Part shown: in pieces, positions 2,083-63,326 of the stretch
How the letters are laid out: each line of letters opens with the position of its first letter
How positions within the stretch are numbered: position 1 is the first letter of the stretch
Source of the DNA: a virus
Lineage: Duplodnaviria > Caudoviricetes
DNA: 64,000 bases
IMG/VR virus record: IMGVR_UViG_3300009183_000045
Direction: 5' to 3' (one strand)
Notes under the pieces: model-generated
Seen by the model: the letters and a program-made list of their open reading frames with translations, nothing else
Database searches by the model: none
What the model was told of the DNA's origin: nothing
Translations under genes and position numbers: made by a program

Positions 2083-3960
2083 ATGAGTTTCGTCAAAGCC
2101 ACTTTAAATATGTTTGAAATTCCACTCAGTGGAGTTTTAGCCGGTAAAAACTCTGTAGTCAATCATGATAACAGTTTCATTATCGGATCGAACATGATGT
2201 CAACATCAGCAAATGTTTTATTTGTTAATAGTTTAAGTGCTTCTGGCAAAATTTTTGGAGTTACTGATGGTAGCATGGTTAACTCTGTAGGAGGAAAAAG
2301 AGGCAATGTAACCTTAGAAATTCCGGATGTTAATTACCTGGAAACAACTTTACAAAGTATTGAGCAAACTCTTTATTCTAAATTAGATTTAGTAGGAGGT
2401 ACCATTGTTGGAGATCTTACAGTCACGGGAGGAATATCTGCACAGGGAGGAGTTCATTTTGCCAATACCATATTTTCCACAACCTCTTCTTTAAGTGTGG
2501 TCAACACTGGGTACGGCCCCGCTCTTTATGTATATCAAGGCAAAGGATCTGGAGATGTCGCTTCTTTCTATGACGGTGACGGAATAGAAGTTTTACATAT
2601 AGGAAACGCAAAAAATACAGCAGGGCTGGATCCATCTGGGGTCATTGGGATTAAAACCTCTAATCCCAACAAAACTTTAACGGTTGTGGGTGAAATCAGT
2701 GCTACCTCAGATATTACCACTTCTGGTAAATTTAAAGGAGATGGAACTTCTTTGACATTGCCTTTGGCAACCTCTGGTCTTGCAGGTGTATTTAAATTAG
2801 GAGCTGGGTTATCTTTGGATCCGAACGGCGCTTTGAATATTGCCAATATTTTCACCGGTGCCACTGGAGCTACGGGTCCCATTGGAGCCTCTGGAGCCAC
2901 TGGACCTCTAGGAATTACTGGAGCTACGGGACCTTCCGGGCCTATCGGATTTTCGGGCTCTCCTGGTCAAACAGGGACCCAAGGATCTACTGGAGCCACT
3001 GGATTGGGCGCTACTGGAGCCACTGGCATTCAAGGTCCAAACGGCGCCACTGGACCCTTTGGTGCCACCGGCCTTGGAGCCACCGGCGCCACAGGCATTC
3101 AAGGCCCGAGTGGGGCGACAGGTCCTCAGGGTATTCAAGGAACTCCTGGAGGAGCCACTGGGCTTCAGGGTCCTACAGGAGCCACGGGATTAGGAGCCAC
3201 CGGAGTTCAGGGGCCAGCCGGCATTCAAGGGGCCACTGGAATAGGAGTTCAGGGACTTAGTGGTAATCCAGGAGCTACTGGAGTCATGGGTCCCGCCGGG
3301 CCTGTAGGTGCTACTGGAATAGGTGCCACCGGACTTCAGGGCACTATAGGAATACAAGGAATTCAAGGTCCAAGCGGGGCCACGGGTATTCAGGGTGCCA
3401 CTGGTTTAGGAGCAACCGGCATTCAAGGACCCACAGGTGCCACGGGAATACAGGGTGTCTCTGGTTTATCTGGTAGTCTAGGACAAACTGGACCCACAGG
3501 TGCTACTGGTATTCAGGGAGCCACAGGAATACAAGGTGCTACTGGTATTCAGGGAGCCACTGGTGCAAACTTAGACAGTACTAAACTTCCTCTAGCAGGT
3601 GGAACCATGACTGGTGGGATAAATCTTCTCTACGTCACAGAAACATATGCAGTCCCTTCCATTGTATCCAATGCAGTTGCTTTTGATTTAACATCTGCCT
3701 CTTTATTTAGATTAACTCTAAATTCTACAGTCACTATAACCTTTACAAACACCCCAACTGCTCCAAAAGTTTATAGTTTTGCTTTACAGACTATAGGAGA
3801 CGGAACTGCTAGAGCCATTACTTGGCCCACTACTATTAAATGGCCAACAGGAGTTGCACCCACCGTAACATCTACTCTTAATAAAGTAGATACATACAGC
3901 TTTCTCACATCAGATGGTGGCTCCAACTGGTATGGATATATAGGTTATCAGGGACATTAA
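2083..3960 (+). CDS. Collagen-like (Gly-X-Y) fibre protein
   Basis: About 240 aa of GAT/GXQ triplets. The C-terminal domain [14 protein letters not shown]...[18 protein letters not shown] is typical of phage fibre tips. Confidence 0.85.
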
Positions 3961-35182: not shown

Positions 35183-35191
35183 CCTGTAATA

Positions 35192-35214
35192 ATCTTAGGA
35201 GAGGTTGTGGGGAA
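35192..35214 (-). promoter_or_regulatory. TTCCC-N12-TAAGAT promoter
   Basis: 9 nt before ATG 35182. Confidence 0.55.
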
Positions 35215-35234
35215 CTTCAAGATCTTTTTTAGAG

Positions 35235-35263
35235 TTGACTTCCCTTCAAATAGGATCTATCTT
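35235..35263 (+). promoter_or_regulatory. TTGACT-N17-TATCTT promoter containing TTCCC
   Basis: 6 nt before ATG 35270. Confidence 0.7.
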
Positions 35264-35269
35264 AAAATT

Positions 35270-35482
35270 ATGCATTGGAAACACCGGGAAATTACCTTAG
35301 AAAGACTAAGACAAACTGTAGAGAGAAGCCAGCAAGATCTGTCCAAACTTTTGTTAGAGGGAATTCTGGCAAAGCAACTAGATTCAGTGGAATATTACAA
35401 AGCACAAAGTCTCCTCACGGCACGCCTAAACATGTCTAAAAAAGACTTAGAAGCTTGGTTAGACATTCCCCGTTCCTTCTGA
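35270..35482 (+). CDS. Hypothetical protein (start MHWKHRE)
   Basis: ATG 6 nt after TTGACT-N17-TATCTT. Confidence 0.6.
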   Translation: MHWKHREITLERLRQTVERSQQDLSKLLLEGILAKQLDSVEYYKAQSLLTARLNMSKKDLEAWLDIPRSF

Positions 35483-48897: not shown

Positions 48898-48986
48898 TTT
48901 GTTCCGTGGTAACCGTTAACCCTCCGGTAGTAGGTTTTTATAAAAGATGGAAAGCCTTTATAATTTAAATCCTACCACGGAACAAA
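48898..48986. ncRNA. Candidate structured RNA or DNA element (three-way junction)
   Basis: 14-bp perfect inverted repeat tttgttccgtggta/taccacggaacaaa enclosing accg/cggt, gtagg/cctac and tataaa/tttata stems. Confidence 0.45.
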
Positions 48987-49729: not shown

Positions 49730-49829
49730 CCTCTAGTAACTCAGTTGGTAGATCTAGTGCTCCCTCATGGTTAAGGGCCAAAATGCCGGGATAAAGCGCT
49801 TGCCGTTGGTTCGAATCCAACCTAGAGGA
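49730..49829 (+). tRNA. Atypical tRNA-like gene with a 33-nt anticodon loop
   Basis: Acceptor CCTCTAG/CTAGAGG plus A73; D-loop AGTTGGTA; perfect T-arm GTTGG-TTCGAAT-CCAAC; anticodon stem GTGCT/AGCGC; no encoded CCA. Confidence 0.7.
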
Positions 49830-53594: not shown

Positions 53595-53617
53595 TCTATA
53601 ATCAATAACTTAATTAG

Positions 53618-53652
53618 ACACTCTAACACTTTGTTTGTTAGAGTGTTTTTTT
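53618..53652 (+). terminator. Intrinsic terminator
   Basis: acactctaaca-N7-tgttagagtgt followed by a T tract. Confidence 0.85.
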
Positions 53653-53687
53653 TTGTTATTTGATTCCCTTTAAGAATAAGTTTTGGT

Positions 53688-54629
53688 ATGAATATAATGG
53701 TGACCGGAGGTTGTGGCTTTATAGGAAGCAATTTTATCAATTTAATAGCAAATAAGCCAGAAGTTAATCACATAATTAATATAGATTTAATGACATATGC
53801 AGCAGATAAAAACAATGTCGAAGCTAATGAAAAGATTAAACATTTTGATATTAATATAACAGACTCCACAGCAATGGCTGCTTTCTTAGTAAATTATAAC
53901 ATAACACATATTGTGCATTTTGCGGCAGAGAGTCATGTAGATAATAGTATAAAATCTCCTAAGGAATTTATAAGAACCAATGTGGTTGGAACTTTTTCTT
54001 TATTAGAAGCTGCTAGGTTTCATAAAAATTTAAAGAGATTTCATCATGTCTCCACAGATGAAGTTTATGGTTCTTTGGGTGAGTTTGGTTATTTTTCAGA
54101 AACAACTCCGTATGATCCGAGGTCTCCTTATTCTGCTTCTAAAGCATCTAGTGATCACTTGGTCAATGCTTATCATCATACCTATAAATTACCAACCACT
54201 ATATCCAATTGTTCAAACAATTACGGCCCTTGCCAACATAAAGAAAAATTAATTCCTAAAATTATTCAAAATATTAAGAAAGGTATCAAGGTTCCTGTTT
54301 ATGGCAATGGACAGAATATTAGAGATTGGTTATATGTTTCTGATCATTGTGAAGCCATATGGGAAATCTTACTAAATGGATTGGAGGGTAACACCTATAA
54401 TGTCGGAGGTGACTGTGAAAGAAATAATATTCAAATTCTTACAGAGATATGTAATCTAATGGAAGTTAATGTATCAGATGTAATAGAATTTGTAGAAGAT
54501 CGCAAGGGTCATGATTTTCGATATGCTATAGATTTCAGCAAGATTAAAAATGAATTGGGATGGACTCCTAAAACTAATTTTATTGAAGGATTAAAAAAGA
54601 CTATAGAATTTTACACTATTGAAAAATAA
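53688..54629 (+). CDS. rmlB: dTDP-glucose 4,6-dehydratase
   Basis: TGGCGFIGSN, HFAAESHVD, VSTDEVYG, YSASK, NCSNNYGP. Confidence 0.95.
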   Translation: MNIMVTGGCGFIGSNFINLIANKPEVNHIINIDLMTYAADKNNVEANEKIKHFDINITDSTAMAAFLVNYNITHIVHFAAESHVDNSIKSPKEFIRTNVVGTFSLLEAARFHKNLKRFHHVSTDEVYGSLGEFGYFSETTPYDPRSPYSASKASSDHLVNAYHHTYKLPTTISNCSNNYGPCQHKEKLIPKIIQNIKKGIKVPVYGNGQNIRDWLYVSDHCEAIWEILLNGLEGNTYNVGGDCERNNIQILTEICNLMEVNVSDVIEFVEDRKGHDFRYAIDFSKIKNELGWTPKTNFIEGLKKTIEFYTIEK

Positions 54630-60179: not shown

Positions 60180-60407
60180 ATGAAACCTACAGCAGGAAAA
60201 TATTACACAATTAATTATTCAAATTCAGAAGAGCTTATGCAATCTTATATGGGCGTTGGAGAGTGTCTTCAGGATATGGGTGATGGACGATATAAGTTTA
60301 TTCTCCCTCATACTAATTTACTGGGATTTTTCTCAGAAGAAGATGTGGTAGCAGAACATGAACCATATAAACGATCTCTAGGAGATCGAGCAATAGGAAG
60401 AGCTTAG
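60180..60407 (+). CDS. Hypothetical protein, similar to 44899..45126
   Basis: GKYYTINY...YMGVGEC...FFSEEDV versus GKSYYIDY...YCGKGIY...WFSTGDI. Confidence 0.55.
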   Translation: MKPTAGKYYTINYSNSEELMQSYMGVGECLQDMGDGRYKFILPHTNLLGFFSEEDVVAEHEPYKRSLGDRAIGRA

Positions 60408-60721: not shown

Positions 60722-60745
60722 AAGATTGACAACGCTATAAAGAAT

Positions 60746-61186
60746 ATGAAAGACACAAACGAAGAACACTACACAATCAATATGGAAACGCACTACATTA
60801 TCCAATACACACGAGGGAGCTATTCTTGGATAGGGGCCGATATAGGTAAGATCAAGTATTACCTTACTATCGAAGAAGCAAGGAAAGACATTGAAAAGGT
60901 ATTCAAAGATGAGCACAGCTTTCATGTAGACGAAGCTGCTATTATTGAATGGAAGAAGACTCCTGTACTTGTTAAGAAGAACATCAAACCTGTTATTGAG
61001 TCTAAAACTACCTTTGATGTAGAGATCTATGATAGGAATGAAAGTAAATGGTGTGCTAGGTATCATGGCTTTGAGACTTTTAAACTGGCTCAGGATTATA
61101 TTAAGGAAAATACAAGAAACCCTCTTTATTCCCAGAACTATCGTGTCGTACAAAGAGATGTAACCGTAAAGACTTCCGTTGTTTAA
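60746..61186 (+). CDS. Hypothetical protein with two similar halves
   Basis: YIIQY..SW...YLTIEEARKDI versus FDVEIY..KW...FETFKLAQDYI. Confidence 0.55.
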   Translation: MKDTNEEHYTINMETHYIIQYTRGSYSWIGADIGKIKYYLTIEEARKDIEKVFKDEHSFHVDEAAIIEWKKTPVLVKKNIKPVIESKTTFDVEIYDRNESKWCARYHGFETFKLAQDYIKENTRNPLYSQNYRVVQRDVTVKTSVV

Positions 61187-61187
61187 T

Positions 61188-61313
61188 ATGGATATCTTTA
61201 CAACTATTATAGGAGGATGTGTTTGTACTGTAGTTCTGTGTTTGACTATGCTAACAATAGCTTTTACTCTTATTAAGATAAGAGATTTTATTGAAGACAT
61301 TAAAGGAGGTTAA
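61188..61313 (+). CDS. 41-aa membrane protein
   Basis: Read by hand. Confidence 0.45.
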   Translation: MDIFTTIIGGCVCTVVLCLTMLTIAFTLIKIRDFIEDIKGG

Positions 61314-61314
61314 T

Positions 61315-61473
61315 ATGGAAACTAATGAACTTAGATCTTTAGTTCTTTCCATTCTGCAAGAAGATGCAAAACGTAAAAATGCTGAACTTGATAAAGCAAG
61401 AAATCAAACTCTTATTGTATTGACAATTCTTTTTGTTTTGTTTCTTGTGGTCAAAATGATTAAACATATTTAA
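61315..61473 (+). CDS. Small membrane protein
   Basis: Hydrophobic C-terminal segment; GGAGG upstream. Confidence 0.5.
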   Translation: METNELRSLVLSILQEDAKRKNAELDKARNQTLIVLTILFVLFLVVKMIKHI

Positions 61474-61488
61474 GAATGTGTAAAGAAT

Positions 61489-61713
61489 ATGAATAAAACA
61501 CCCACTCTTAGAGAAAAAGTAAAAATGTATGAAGAACTCTTACACAAGATCAACTTAATGCAGATAGCTTGTGATAATGAAGGGATTAAAAAACTCTTGC
61601 GCAATATAGACAAGTGGTCATATATGCATCGCTGCGGTAACGGAGAATTATCAGAAAGAGAACAGCAGGAACTAATTGATAGAGCATTTCGAAAACTGAC
61701 TAATTTAGAATAA
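61489..61713 (+). CDS. Hypothetical protein
   Basis: ORF. Confidence 0.55.
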   Translation: MNKTPTLREKVKMYEELLHKINLMQIACDNEGIKKLLRNIDKWSYMHRCGNGELSEREQQELIDRAFRKLTNLE

Positions 61714-61714
61714 T

Positions 61715-61870
61715 ATGAGACTTCTAAACATTGGAGAAACCATTAAGAAGCATGACGAAGTAAATGTTCAACCATTTACAGGTGAACACTGGCCACCAAT
61801 TTGGGAAAAAGTCACTTCATTTATTGGATGGAAAGTAACAGAAGGTACATATGGAAAATACAGGAGATAA
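61715..61870 (+). CDS. 51-aa hypothetical protein
   Basis: Read by hand; fills the gap between neighbouring genes. Confidence 0.45.
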   Translation: MRLLNIGETIKKHDEVNVQPFTGEHWPPIWEKVTSFIGWKVTEGTYGKYRR

Positions 61871-61871
61871 T

Positions 61872-62093
61872 ATGGAAACAAAAGCCACGAACACACTTGT
61901 AAGACATAAGGTAGAAGACAACGTATACACTCAAACTTCCTATACAGGACAGATTAGGTGGTGTCGCAAACCATTGTACGATGAACCAACTCTCCAACAA
62001 CAAGTAACAATTAGCACTTTTGGGAATTATGTCATTACTAAACAGGAAGTTAAATGGGTCGATGTGCCTGTAGAATGGATCAAAGAAAACTAA
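61872..62093 (+). CDS. Hypothetical protein
   Basis: ORF from ATG 61872. Confidence 0.5.
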   Translation: METKATNTLVRHKVEDNVYTQTSYTGQIRWCRKPLYDEPTLQQQVTISTFGNYVITKQEVKWVDVPVEWIKEN

Positions 62094-62097
62094 TAGA

Positions 62098-62397
62098 ATG
62101 AACGAGGAAGAACATATTGAAAATTTATTACGCTGGCTAATTAGTGAAGTTAGGTCAGCAGGAGGAGATGGTGATGCTATTTGGCATTCGAAGCACAAAA
62201 CTATTGACGAGCTTGTGCCTTTTGTACTAAAAATAGACACAGAATTGAATTTAAACTGGCAGATTAAAATCCAAAAAACTCCAGAATGTTCTTGCTATCT
62301 ATCTTGGCATGATGGACAAGAATGTCTAATCATAACAAATAGCGAAAAGATGTGGAACGAAAGACCAAGCTGGAGTCAATGTTCAATTGATTGGTAA
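62098..62397 (+). CDS. Hypothetical protein
   Basis: ORF. Confidence 0.55.
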   Translation: MNEEEHIENLLRWLISEVRSAGGDGDAIWHSKHKTIDELVPFVLKIDTELNLNWQIKIQKTPECSCYLSWHDGQECLIITNSEKMWNERPSWSQCSIDW

Positions 62398-62611
62398 TAT
62401 GGCACACGACGACATTATACCTAATGACGACTTTCCTCACGACTATACAGATGAAGTAGTTTGTCCTTATTGTGGTTATGAGTTTACGGATAGTTGGGAA
62501 TTCAATGACACCCAAGATGAACAACATGTAGAGTGTCATGATTGTGGAAAAGAGTTTTTTCTTTACGTAAACGTAACTGTGGACTATTCTACTAGAAAGA
62601 AGAAGGAATAA
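62387..62611 (+). CDS. Zinc-ribbon protein
   Basis: CPYC...CHDC. Confidence 0.65.
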   Translation: MIGNMAHDDIIPNDDFPHDYTDEVVCPYCGYEFTDSWEFNDTQDEQHVECHDCGKEFFLYVNVTVDYSTRKKKE

Positions 62612-62612
62612 T

Positions 62613-62867
62613 ATGAAAGAAAGATGCTTTGCTTATCAAAATAAGAAGACTCATAGATGGTTAAAGATTAACCCCAGCATTAAAATATACTATGAAGGAT
62701 ACGGATACGGGCATTCGATCTATGACGCATTTGACAAATCTGTATTGTATTGTGTTAGGAATATTATTGAAGAAGATTTCTCTAAAACTAAATTAGAGAA
62801 CAGAGAAGATTGGCAGTTGATGGAAGTTGAGATTGAATATAACTTTACTAGAGCAAATCTGAACTAA
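62613..62867 (+). CDS. Hypothetical protein
   Basis: ORF. Confidence 0.5.
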   Translation: MKERCFAYQNKKTHRWLKINPSIKIYYEGYGYGHSIYDAFDKSVLYCVRNIIEEDFSKTKLENREDWQLMEVEIEYNFTRANLN

Positions 62868-62902
62868 TTTTAATAAAGAGCTAATTATTTTGTCAGTAAC
62901 AA

Positions 62903-63010
62903 CCAGAGAGCGTGGGCGAAAATGCCCTGCGTAGCCACGCTTACTTTCGCGAGTCCTGCTTGGGGCACTGCTGTTGGGACTCCTCGCTATAGAGCGAACC
63001 ACCTCTCTGG
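62903..63010. ncRNA. Candidate GC-rich structured ncRNA (four-way junction with possible pseudoknot)
   Basis: 65 of 108 nt are G/C; four perfect stems; intergenic. Confidence 0.6.
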
Positions 63011-63057
63011 GAAGGTTTTAATTATAAAACGCAAAATGAGATTTTTCCAAGCAAAGC

Positions 63058-63086
63058 TTGACGTCCCACAGGAAACCATCTAATAT
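63058..63086 (+). promoter_or_regulatory. Sigma70-type promoter
   Basis: TTGACG-N17-TAATAT, 6 nt before ATG 63093. Confidence 0.75.
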
Positions 63087-63092
63087 TGTAGC

Positions 63093-63326
63093 ATGACAAA
63101 GACACAACAGATAGAAGAGCTGCAACTACTTCAAGTAATTTCAGTAGCTAACTGGTTTGACAACTTCGAAGTTAACTACGATCCAGTAGACAAAAAGACA
63201 ATCATTCGAGGTTGGGCACGTTATTGCACGAACAACTTCTTCTGGACTTCAGAAGACCCAATAAAAGAGTTCTACCAAAGAATAGAGAGATTCTTTATGG
63301 AGGAAGGTAACGAGCAATTCAAATAA
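63093..63326 (+). CDS. Hypothetical protein
   Basis: Promoter upstream. Confidence 0.6.
   Translation: MTKTQQIEELQLLQVISVANWFDNFEVNYDPVDKKTIIRGWARYCTNNFFWTSEDPIKEFYQRIERFFMEEGNEQFK

What the first reader, a model, noticed from the sequence alone, without database searches (positions are those of the whole stretch)
62903..63050. GC-rich intergenic four-way-junction RNA candidate with loop-loop pseudoknot
Seen: 108 nt at 60% GC within strongly AT-rich small-ORF DNA. The stems are P1 ccagaga/tctctgg (62903-09/63004-10), P2 gcgtgg/ccacgc (62910-15/62935-40), P3 gagtcc/ggactc (62951-56/62977-82) and P4 tcgct-atag-agcga (62984-97). TGCCC in the P2 loop (62923-27) is complementary to GGGCA in the P3 loop (62963-67). 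A possible minus-strand promoter (TTGGAA-N18-TATAAT, about 63021-63050) points into it, divergent from the 63058 promoter. I could not match it to a riboswitch or ribozyme core I know. Inference: an undescribed phage ncRNA (ribozyme, protein sponge or anti-defence RNA); strand unresolved.
Basis: partly seen in the sequence, partly recalled or inferred. Interest (0 to 1): 0.8.

Follow-up and report, generated by a model that had tools for sequence, protein, structure and literature searches.

The report
Pseudoknotted four-way-junction RNA module in phage
A 108-base GC-rich stretch after a small-gene operon of an uncultured freshwater T4-like phage is a real, conserved, plus-strand folded RNA with four helices and a loop-loop pseudoknot; it matches no described RNA family, moves between genome positions as a discrete block, and its function is still unknown.

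Summary
The observation largely holds. Positions 62903-63010 form a 59-60% GC island in 37% GC DNA, lying between two plus-strand ORFs. P1, P3, P4 and the TGCCC/GGGCA loop complementarity are all present.

I found three further variants: one allele in other lake metagenomes (L023/L102) and two copies in a distant 236-kb relative (G012). These change the model in three ways:
It is replaced by GTGG/CCAC, which extends P1, plus a short P2 (GCGAAA/TTTCGC).
- The pseudoknot covaries: UGCCC/GGGCA becomes UACCC/GGGUA. P4 and P2 each show one compensatory change.
- The strand is plus. The evidence is G-U pairs, a U-A to U-G change, and the same orientation as the flanking genes in all four contexts.

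The minus-strand promoter is not conserved. Nothing matches in Rfam, GenBank phages or two invariant motifs scanned in bacterial contigs, and 58 other related viral records lack it. The element is a sharply bounded block of about 165 nt (62855-63019) that ends in an invariant GGGAAGGUUUU. It always sits just after a stop codon.

My best guess (about 0.4) is a cis-acting 3'-end module that protects or processes the upstream mRNA. A trans-acting stable RNA is nearly as likely. There are no expression data and only four distinct sequences. This scan had noted the element only on this same window.

The parts
62855..63019 (+). Conserved, shuffled block. It holds the last 4 codons and stop of the upstream ORF, an AT-rich leader, the folded RNA and the GAAGGTTTT tail.
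   Evidence: Homology with L023 starts and stops here although the flanking genes differ. Contigs from DNA runs X6 and X7 break at 62855 and 63019 into other contexts. L102 gives the same picture.
62868..62902 (+). AT-rich 5' leader between the stop codon and P1. Its last ~16 nt are similar in the G012 copy L111.
62903..62915 (+). P1 5' strand: CCAGAGAG, bulged C62911, then GTGG. It pairs with 62999-63010.
   Evidence: MFE and consensus folds. All 12 pairs are invariant in the 4 variants. The C bulge becomes an A-U pair in L111 and L112.
62916..62950 (+). P2. The proximal stem is GCGAAA 62916-21 with TTTCGC 62945-50. Its variable distal part holds a window-specific hairpin, GCGT 62929-32 with ACGC 62937-40.
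   Evidence: G62918-C62948 becomes U-A in L111. The outer 3 pairs are kept in all variants; the inner 3 are broken in L111 and carry 1 mismatch in L112. The distal part is replaced in L023 and carries a different 7-bp hairpin in L112.
62922..62928 (+). L2 pseudoknot strand A-UGCCC-U. It pairs with 62962-62968.
   Evidence: G62924-C62966 becomes A-U in both G012 copies. The 62922:62968 pair reads A.C, A-U, A.C and C-G in the four variants.
62951..62982 (+). P3: GAGTCCTG 62951-58 with TGGGACTC 62975-82, including two G-U pairs. The 16-nt loop holds the pseudoknot strand GGGGCAC 62962-68.
   Evidence: T62954-A62979 becomes U-G in the G012 copies, a pair that is valid only on the plus strand.
62984..62997 (+). 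P4 hairpin TCGCT-ATAG-AGCGA.
   Evidence: G62986-C62995 is A-U in the other three variants, a compensatory change.
62999..63010 (+). P1 3' strand: CCAC plus CTCTCTGG.
63011..63019 (+). Invariant 3' tail GAAGGTTTT. With the preceding GG it reads GGGAAGGUUUU in all 4 variants, and the conserved block ends here.
   Evidence: The 17-mer CTCTCTGGGAAGGTTTT occurs in IMG/VR in family members only in G012.
62613..62867 (+). Upstream 84-aa ORF of unknown family. It is the last of a tightly packed run of small plus-strand ORFs (60746-62867).
   Evidence: Homologues in 5 IMG/VR relatives are not followed by the element.
63058..63092 (+). Early-type promoter cassette TTGACG-N17-TAATAT, then 6 nt, then the ATG of the 77-aa ORF (63093-63326). 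It is not part of the conserved block.
   Evidence: L023 has a different promoter-like site here.
63021..63050 (-). I judge it a chance consensus match.
   Evidence: 11 sites found against 6.9 expected in this AT-rich region. It is absent at the same place in L023, L111 and L112.

Best explanation
What it is (confidence about 0.85). This is a genuine structured RNA element read on the plus strand. It is a compact, nearly perfect four-way junction:
- P1 has 12-13 bp.
- P2 is short and has a variable distal part.
- P3 has 8 bp.
- P4 has 5 bp and a 4-nt loop.
- A 5-7 bp kissing pseudoknot between the P2 and P3 loops locks the fold.

It is made as part of the transcript of the small-ORF operon that ends 35 nt upstream.

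How it most likely works (inferred, about 0.4). It acts in cis as an operon-end or intercistronic 3'-end module.
- The RNA 3' end forms at the invariant GGGAAGG-UUUU tail. This could happen by endonucleolytic cutting of the single-stranded AU-rich tail (an RNase E-type site next to a structure) or by weak termination.
- The pseudoknotted junction then acts as a cap that 3'-to-5' exonucleases cannot unwind. That stabilises the upstream message and insulates it from the next unit.

At the DNA level the module is a discrete block of about 165 nt. Recombination moves it among the variable small-gene regions of related phages.
For: Shown: real and conserved.
- Three further variants exist: L023/L102, and two copies in G012 scoring 101.6 and 89.9 bits with a model built from the window and L023 only.
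- Only 12 of 76 paired columns vary, against 44 of 65 unpaired columns.
- Compensatory changes occur in P2, P4 and the pseudoknot, and a bulge becomes a pair in P1.
- The consensus fold has z -5.8.
- Indels of 4 and 14 nt rule out coding.

Shown: plus strand.
- There are 3-4 G-U pairs per copy, and one U-A to U-G change in mid-P3.
- The plus-strand MFE is lower in all four variants.
- The element has the same orientation as its flanking ORFs in all four contexts.

Shown: position.
- P1 begins 7-35 nt after a stop codon that ends a packed ORF run in the window, L111 and L112; in L023 it follows a 44-aa ORF near the contig end.
- No conserved upstream promoter is detected.
- The tail is invariant, and the conserved block ends exactly at it.

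Shown: block mobility.
- The same block lies next to different genes.
- It is absent after the homologous gene in 5 relatives, and absent from 58 other related records.
- Copy L111 lies in the syntenic neighbourhood.

Inferred only: 3'-end formation at the tail and exonuclease protection. These rest on general knowledge of stem-loop-protected phage and bacterial mRNAs.
Against: - There are no expression data of any kind.
- The tail is not a canonical intrinsic terminator. GAAGG separates P1 from the U run in 3 of 4 copies, and the terminator scan finds none at P1 on the plus strand.
- In L111 the next ATG is only about 22 nt after the tail, with no promoter between them. Strong termination there would silence the downstream genes.
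- A simple hairpin would be enough to stabilise a 3' end. This phage uses ordinary hairpin terminators elsewhere. A selected pseudoknotted four-way junction therefore suggests a more specific role.
- The covariation rests on 4 sequences in two clusters, so each helix has only one compensatory event.
Confidence: 0.4

Rival explanations
1. A stable trans-acting non-coding RNA. The junction is cut out of the operon transcript (5' of P1 and at the tail) and accumulates. Its rigid fold binds a host or phage protein, acting as a decoy, sponge, anti-defence RNA or tRNA-like mimic.
For: - Selection keeps a specific tertiary fold (pseudoknot covariation), which is more than 3'-end protection needs.
- P1 has 12-13 bp, the length of a stacked tRNA acceptor/T helix.
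- The element occurs sporadically and twice in one genome, as accessory counter-defence genes do.
- T4 itself makes stable small RNAs of unknown role, rnaC and rnaD.
Against: - It has no promoter of its own, and no partner gene co-occurs with it. All neighbouring ORFs are without family.
- A window-versus-five-genomes comparison gave only ORFans as candidates.
- It shows no similarity to tRNA, Y-RNA-like or T4 rnaC/rnaD models.
- No RNA data exist.
Confidence: 0.3
2. A self-cleaving ribozyme that processes the polycistronic transcript between gene cassettes.
For: Small ribozymes are common in phage intergenic DNA (my own knowledge). A multi-helix junction whose adjacent arms touch through their loops recalls hammerhead and hairpin ribozyme architecture.
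Against: - It matches no ribozyme model in Rfam, even at E up to 10.
- The junction has only about two unpaired nucleotides (C62983, A62998) plus one bulge that is not conserved. That leaves little room for a catalytic core.
Confidence: 0.07
3. A DNA-level element: a recombination hotspot, cruciform or protein-binding site that mediates cassette shuffling, with no role as RNA.
For: Homology boundaries are sharp, and the block occurs in different gene contexts. It lies in a hyperplastic small-ORF region, like the PeSL cassettes of T4-type phages (PMC2839356, PMC4122927).
Against: - G-T pairs, and a T-A to T-G change inside P3, are tolerated.
- A loop-loop pseudoknot covaries. That has no meaning for duplex DNA.
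- The orientation is always that of the flanking genes.
Confidence: 0.06
4. One reading: a minus-strand ncRNA driven by TTGGAA-N18-TATAAT at 63050-63021.
For: A 10/12 consensus match points into the element. The reverse complement also folds well.
Against: - The site lies outside the conserved block and is not kept in L023, L111 or L112.
- On the minus strand, 3-4 pairs per copy become A.C mismatches, including the mid-P3 change.
- The minus-strand score with the model is 8-27 bits, against 125-153 bits for the plus strand.
Confidence: 0.03
5. A ligand-sensing riboswitch or a transcription-modifying (put-like antitermination) RNA.
For: The L2-L3 kissing arms resemble the purine-riboswitch design. 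The element lies within early-type transcription units.
Against: - There is no unpaired junction pocket.
- It lies after genes rather than in a 5' leader, and a promoter separates it from the next gene in two contexts.
- It has no Rfam match.
- The downstream genes are unrelated to one another.
Confidence: 0.04

Closest known systems
PeSL cassettes (promoter-early stem-loop) of T4-type phages (Arbiol et al. 2010, PMC2839356; Comeau et al. 2014, PMC4122927)
   Same: Both are stem-loop-containing intergenic modules at the boundaries of variable small ORFs in hyperplastic regions of T4-like genomes. Both are associated with indels between close relatives. In the window and in L023 an early-type promoter follows the element.
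   Different: PeSL stem-loops are short, simple, terminator-like hairpins fused to a conserved promoter and repeated many times per genome. Here the structure is a 108-nt pseudoknotted four-way junction. The promoter is not part of the conserved block and is missing in L111. Copy number is 1-2, and no canonical U-tract follows the stem.
Intercistronic processing/stabiliser hairpins of phage early mRNAs (for example T7 RNase III sites) and 3' stem-loop mRNA stabilisers
   Same: The position between co-directional genes of an early-type operon is the same. So is the proposed role of defining and protecting a 3' end.
   Different: Those elements are irregular single hairpins with a known nuclease. 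Here the fold is multi-branched with a tertiary pseudoknot, and no nuclease is known. I recall this comparison from memory and did not test it.
Purine riboswitch aptamer / hammerhead-type junctions with kissing adjacent arms
   Same: Adjacent helices leaving a junction are held side by side by Watson-Crick loop-loop pairing.
   Different: The element has four helices rather than three, almost no unpaired junction nucleotides, no conserved core, a different location, and no Rfam hit.
T4 stable RNAs rnaC and rnaD (species 1 and 2)
   Same: Both are small structured RNAs of unknown function encoded by a T4-type phage and presumably processed from a longer transcript.
   Different: There is no sequence or structure similarity: the best model score in the T4 tRNA region is 7 bits. 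rnaC carries a tRNA-type T arm and this element does not. The T4 RNAs lie in the tRNA cluster.
Exoribonuclease-resistant RNAs (xrRNAs) of RNA viruses
   Same: Both are compact junction-plus-pseudoknot folds in a viral transcript's untranslated region. The proposed role, blocking a processive exonuclease, is the same.
   Different: xrRNAs block 5'-to-3' Xrn1 with a ring-like three-way junction. Here the blocked direction would be 3'-to-5'. There is no sequence or topological homology, and the function is untested.

Membership tests
Any Rfam 15 family | Score at or above the family's gathering threshold, or at least a suggestive E-value | tested here: not met
   Whole window at gathering thresholds: only a tRNA at 49730-49829. 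Positions 62800-63150 at E up to 10: only noise, SCARNA7 at 13.9 bits and STnc450 at 11.9 bits. Loci holding the other three variants: nothing at the element.
tRNA / tRNA-like | Cloverleaf with D and T loops recognised by ARAGORN or the Rfam tRNA model | tested here: not met
   ARAGORN finds no gene in the window. There is no tRNA-clan hit at the element. The P4 loop has 4 nt, so it is not a T loop.
Intrinsic (Rho-independent) terminator | GC-rich stem followed within 0-2 nt by a U-rich tract | tested here: not met
   No plus-strand terminator-like site is reported at P1 in the window, L023, L111 or L112. GAAGG separates P1 from UUUU. Only in L112 does CUUC/GAAG extend the stem to the U run.
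PeSL cassette | Short simple stem-loop directly coupled to a conserved early promoter as one repeated composite motif | tested here: not met
   The structure is a 108-nt four-way junction. The promoter lies outside the conserved block, differs between the window and L023, and is absent in L111.
PeSL cassette | Located in hyperplastic small-ORF regions at indel boundaries between close relatives | tested here: met
   Relative L004 joins the 84-aa gene homologue directly to the homologue of ORF 63771. The window therefore carries an extra 0.9 kb that starts with the element. The block boundaries recur in other contexts.
PeSL cassette | Many copies per genome | tested here: not met
   There is one copy in the 64-kb window, two in the complete 236-kb G012, and none in four other complete relatives.
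Known small self-cleaving ribozymes (hammerhead, twister, twister-sister, pistol, hatchet, hairpin, HDV-like) | Match to the family covariance model or conserved catalytic core | tested here: not met
   No such hit even at E up to 10. Self-cleavage itself cannot be tested with these tools.
T4 rnaC / rnaD stable RNAs | Sequence or structure similarity to the T4 genes | tested here: not met
   Model R2 scanned over T4 69.5-74.5 kb with filters off: best score 7.3 bits, and not at rnaC or rnaD.
Structured RNA (general criterion) | Homologues that keep the helices through compensatory changes, with variation concentrated in unpaired parts | tested here: met
   97% of cells are paired. Compensatory pairs occur in P2, P4 and the pseudoknot. 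12 of 76 paired columns vary, against 44 of 65 unpaired. Caveat: there are only 4 sequences, and the shuffle control gives 31 of 500.

The most novel reading that the evidence does not exclude
The element is the founding member of a new class of compact pseudoknotted four-way-junction RNAs carried as mobile modules by freshwater T4-like phages. Its fold would have a specific molecular job beyond 3'-end protection. One possibility is a bacterial-world counterpart of exonuclease-resistant viral RNAs. Another is a decoy that binds and neutralises a host nuclease or defence protein.
Probability: 0.3. Interest if true: 0.8.

Novelty: categorically new. Interest (0 to 1): 0.6.

Why it matters
If the fold has a dedicated function, it would add a new RNA class to the small list of phage-encoded structured RNAs. 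It would also give a tractable 108-nt object, with a covariation-supported pseudoknot, for structural and biochemical work.

It also shows that the gene-cassette boundaries of T4-like hyperplastic regions can carry elaborate RNA modules, not just hairpin terminators. That bears on how early transcripts are punctuated and how accessory cassettes are shuffled.

The caveat is large. The family is tiny (four distinct sequences in one uncultured lineage), the function is inferred from position alone, and no transcript has been seen.

Tried and rejected
Database searches
- Rfam at gathering and permissive thresholds, on the window and on the loci holding the other three variants: nothing.
- blastn of the element and its region against 50,697 GenBank phage records: only chance 21-26-nt hits.
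- Exact-pattern scans of IMG/VR:
  - An 18-mer gave 2 chance hits.
  - GTGGGCGAAAATGCCC gave 78 hits. The ones inspected are unrelated short hairpins or coding DNA, and none of the 78 extends beyond the seed.
  - A P2/P3 pattern gave none.
  - The invariant 17-mer tail found only G012 plus 2 chance hits.
- One metagenome scan found only L102, the same allele as L023, plus one chance hit.
- Bacterial and archaeal genome contigs: three patterns gave no true copy.

Flanking genes
- The 77-aa downstream protein has 9 homologue clusters and the L111 downstream protein has 15. The contexts I looked up lack the element, except L011/L023.

Expression
- No RNA holder is listed for the element.
- Two lake metatranscriptome runs hold contigs that cover only the upstream 84-aa gene; X1's contig runs on into a flank like that of relative L001, which lacks the element. 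This says nothing about expression of the element.

Link to the odd tRNA
- The shared 13-mer GGGC[CG]AAAATGCC has a local-alignment p of about 0.013 by shuffling.
- It occurs at only these two places in the window and is not kept in the G012 copies.
- The tRNA is present in G008, which lacks the element. It is not found by BLAST in G012, which has the element. I rejected the link as probably chance.

Other ideas rejected
- Coding potential: indels of 4 and 14 nt rule it out.
- A promoter inside or overlapping the element (GCGAAC-N17-TTTAAT): few consensus matches, and the spacing varies across copies. This check was done by eye.
- Homology to T4 rnaC/rnaD.

Partner gene by co-occurrence
- I compared the window ORFs with five whole relatives. 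ORF 37738-38118 matches in G012 alone, and ORF 60180-60407 matches well only there (91%, plus a 30-aa partial in G005). The first has a primase-like PHROG hit. There are too few genomes for this to mean anything.

Full report
**1. The observation**

GC is 0.59-0.60 in 100-nt windows at 62900-62999, against 0.37 for the window as a whole. The only other islands this GC-rich lie within long ORFs of 150 aa or more. The stretch lies between two plus-strand ORFs, 62613-62867 (84 aa) and 63093-63326 (77 aa). The upstream ORF is the last of a tightly packed run of small plus-strand ORFs that starts at 60746. ARAGORN finds no tRNA or tmRNA.

Each strand folds somewhat better than its shuffles: plus -48.6 kcal/mol (z -2.6) and minus -46.4 kcal/mol (z -3.1). 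GTGG 62912-15 pairs with CCAC 62999-63002, which lengthens P1 to 12 bp with C62911 bulged. GCGAAA 62916-21 pairs with TTTCGC 62945-50.

**2. Known families**

Rfam 15 gives nothing at the element, either at gathering thresholds over the whole window or at E up to 10 over 62800-63150. BLAST against 50,697 GenBank phage records also gives nothing.

**3. Context**

No whole genome is held for this window. Earlier notes of this scan describe the genome as a T4-like phage of more than 211 kb. The window itself encodes tail-fibre-type proteins, including a gp38-like adhesin. The closest cultured phages share only 37-42% identity in an AAA protein, so the lineage is uncultured and comes from freshwater.

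The TTGACG-N17-TAATAT site at 63058 has the geometry that another note reports for this phage's early promoter cassettes, with the ATG 6 nt after the -10 element. Elsewhere in the window such promoters are preceded by ordinary hairpin-plus-T-run terminators.

**4. Finding relatives**

- Five IMG/VR relatives encode the 84-aa protein (59-92% identity) but lack the element after it. In L004 that gene is followed directly by the homologue of window ORF 63771. The window therefore carries about 0.9 kb extra that begins with the element.
- Three JGI contigs hold 100% identical copies, which give no information on covariation.
- Homologues of the 77-aa protein led to ENA contig L011/L023, which holds a diverged allele about 2 kb from that gene. 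The same allele occurs in JGI contig L102 and in DNA runs X6 and X7.
- Homology between the window and L023 begins at 62855, inside the last four codons of two unrelated upstream ORFs. It ends at 63019, right after GGTTTT. Run contigs break at the same two points into other contexts. The element is therefore a discrete block of about 165 nt.
- A covariance model built from the window and L023 was run over the whole records of 12 relatives. It found two copies in the complete 236-kb contig G012, at 101.6 and 89.9 bits, and none in four other complete relatives.
- A four-sequence model, R2, found nothing in 49 more related records and nothing new in G012.
- One invariant motif scanned in IMG/VR, and it and two others in bacterial and archaeal contigs, gave no further member.

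The family as known has four distinct sequences in two clusters.

**5. What the variants show**

- P1: all 12 pairs are invariant. The bulged C of the window and L023 is an A paired to an inserted U in L111 and L112.
- P2: the three junction-proximal pairs are kept in all four, with G62918-C62948 replaced by U-A in L111. The three A-U pairs are lost in L111 and interrupted in L112.
- Distal P2 is free to vary. The window has a GCGU/ACGC hairpin there and L112 a different 7-bp hairpin, while the consensus model places none in L023 or L111.
- P3: all pairs are kept. T62954-A62979 becomes U-G in both G012 copies.
- P4: G62986-C62995 is A-U in the other three variants.
- Pseudoknot: UGCCC (62923-27) with GGGCA (62963-67) becomes UACCC with GGGUA in both G012 copies, a compensatory G-C to A-U change. 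The flanking pair 62922:62968 reads A.C, A-U, A.C and C-G in the four variants. In L023 the two substitutions in the P3 loop fall immediately on either side of the conserved GGGGCA.
- Overall, 12 of 76 paired columns vary, against 44 of 65 unpaired columns.
- The consensus fold is far better than column-shuffled alignments: plus z -5.8 and minus z -5.3.

Three caveats apply. With four sequences each helix rests on one evolutionary event. The tool's shuffle control reaches the observed covariation in 31 of 500 trials. The C-to-U change in L3 is also compatible with a small alternative helix inside the P3 loop.

**6. Strand**

Each copy has 3-4 G-U pairs, which would be A.C mismatches on the minus strand. 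One of them is the substitution in the middle of P3. The plus-strand MFE is lower in all four variants. The minus strand scores 8-27 bits with the models, against 125-153 bits for the plus strand. In all four contexts the element has the orientation of the flanking ORFs. The RNA is read on the plus strand.

**7. Position and tail**

P1 starts 35 nt (window, L023), 24 nt (L111) or 7 nt (L112) after the stop codon of a co-directional ORF; in the window, L111 and L112 that ORF ends a packed run. No conserved promoter precedes it.

The 3' tail GGGAAGGUUUU is invariant. It is not a canonical terminator, because GAAGG separates the stem from the U run. The exception is L112, where CUUC/GAAG extends P1. 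The next gene has its own early-type promoter in the window and L023. In L111 it starts only about 22 nt after the tail with no promoter between, so termination cannot be efficient there.

Indels of 4 and 14 nt exclude a coding function.

**8. Interpretation**

That this is a selected plus-strand RNA structure with a real loop-loop pseudoknot is well supported (about 0.85). Function is inference only.

The placement directly after operon-final stop codons, the lack of its own promoter, and the invariant single-stranded AU-rich tail at which the conserved block ends all favour a cis-acting 3'-end module. In that model, processing or weak termination occurs at the tail, and the pseudoknotted junction protects the upstream message from 3' exonucleases (about 0.4).

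The elaborate tertiary fold, the sporadic distribution and the duplication in G012 fit almost as well with a stable trans-acting RNA that binds a protein (about 0.3).

The remaining options are less likely:
- A ribozyme or ligand sensor, because the junction has only about two unpaired nucleotides and no model matches.
- A purely DNA-level role, because of the G-T pairs and the pseudoknot covariation.

**9. Comparison with known systems**

The nearest concept is the PeSL cassette of T4-type phages (PMC2839356, PMC4122927). It too is a stem-loop module at the boundaries of shuffled small ORFs. The element shares the location and the association with indels. It fails the defining features of a short simple hairpin, a fused conserved promoter and many copies per genome.

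T4's stable RNAs rnaC and rnaD are unrelated. I know of no described family with this architecture, and a text search of the paper library found none.

**10. Side tests**

- A comparison of window ORFs with five whole relatives shows that copy L111 lies in the syntenic neighbourhood. Window 58.6-60.4 kb matches G012 223.0-224.2 kb, and the element follows 1.1 kb later in G012 and 2.5 kb later in the window. The comparison revealed no annotated partner gene.

**11. Verdict**

This is a real and apparently undescribed structured RNA motif. The family is very small and the function is open.

Noticed in passing
window 49730-49829 (+); L344:1490-1605 (-) in G008: A tRNA-shaped gene (Rfam tRNA, 30.4 bits) carries an insert of about 33-37 nt in the anticodon loop. 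It is 96% conserved in the 227-kb relative G008, and the insert differs there at one base. The acceptor stem differs through paired changes (CCTCTAG/CTAGAGG versus TTTCCAG/CTGGAAA). That pattern argues for a functional, possibly intron-bearing, tRNA.
   Followed up: partly
window 60180-60407 (+) and G012 224014-224254: A 75-aa ORFan is 91% identical at both DNA and protein level between the window phage and G012. The shared proteins of these two phages are otherwise 26-70% identical. This points to a recent exchange within the same variable region that holds the element, with synteny between window 58.6-60.4 kb and G012 223.0-224.2 kb.
   Followed up: partly
L112:701-1497 (+) and 2842-3114 (G012 about 35.8-38.2 kb): Tandem small paralogous ORFs share a C-terminal motif (K..FFLSVIKYGI.FEE). 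The second G012 copy of the element follows the last of four packed paralogues.
   Followed up: no
window 48898-48986, 35190-35275, 53615-53690: Other plus-strand early-type promoter cassettes are preceded by structures. Ordinary hairpin-plus-T-run terminators lie at 35.2 and 53.6 kb, and a long 14-bp inverted repeat lies at 48.9 kb. This phage pairs structures with promoters in a PeSL-like way.
   Followed up: partly
L024-L101 (IMG/VR, many from sample 3300045988): The 16-mer GTGGGCGAAAATGCCC recurs in IMG/VR contigs, many of about 85-90 kb. In three of the five loci inspected it is the core of a GGTGGGC-GAAAAT-GCCCACC terminator hairpin. This is a coincidental match and unrelated to the element.
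   Followed up: yes
window 60736-60743; L112:1655-1662: TATAAAGA, 7 of 8 matches to the T4 late-promoter consensus TATAAATA, occurs just before the ATG at 60746. It also occurs downstream of the L112 element copy. It may be a late-promoter variant in this lineage.
   Followed up: no
L010:1066-1078 versus window 63093-63105: One otherwise identical JGI contig diverges right after the ATG of the downstream gene (ATGAGAACACC versus ATGACAAAGAC). The promoter cassette may therefore be joined to a different gene there.
   Followed up: no
window 62606-62851 (runs X1, X2): Two lake metatranscriptome assemblies contain contigs of the upstream 84-aa gene. X1's contig runs on into a flank like that of relative L001, which lacks the element. 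These are contigs only, so neither strand nor expression level can be read from them.
   Followed up: partly
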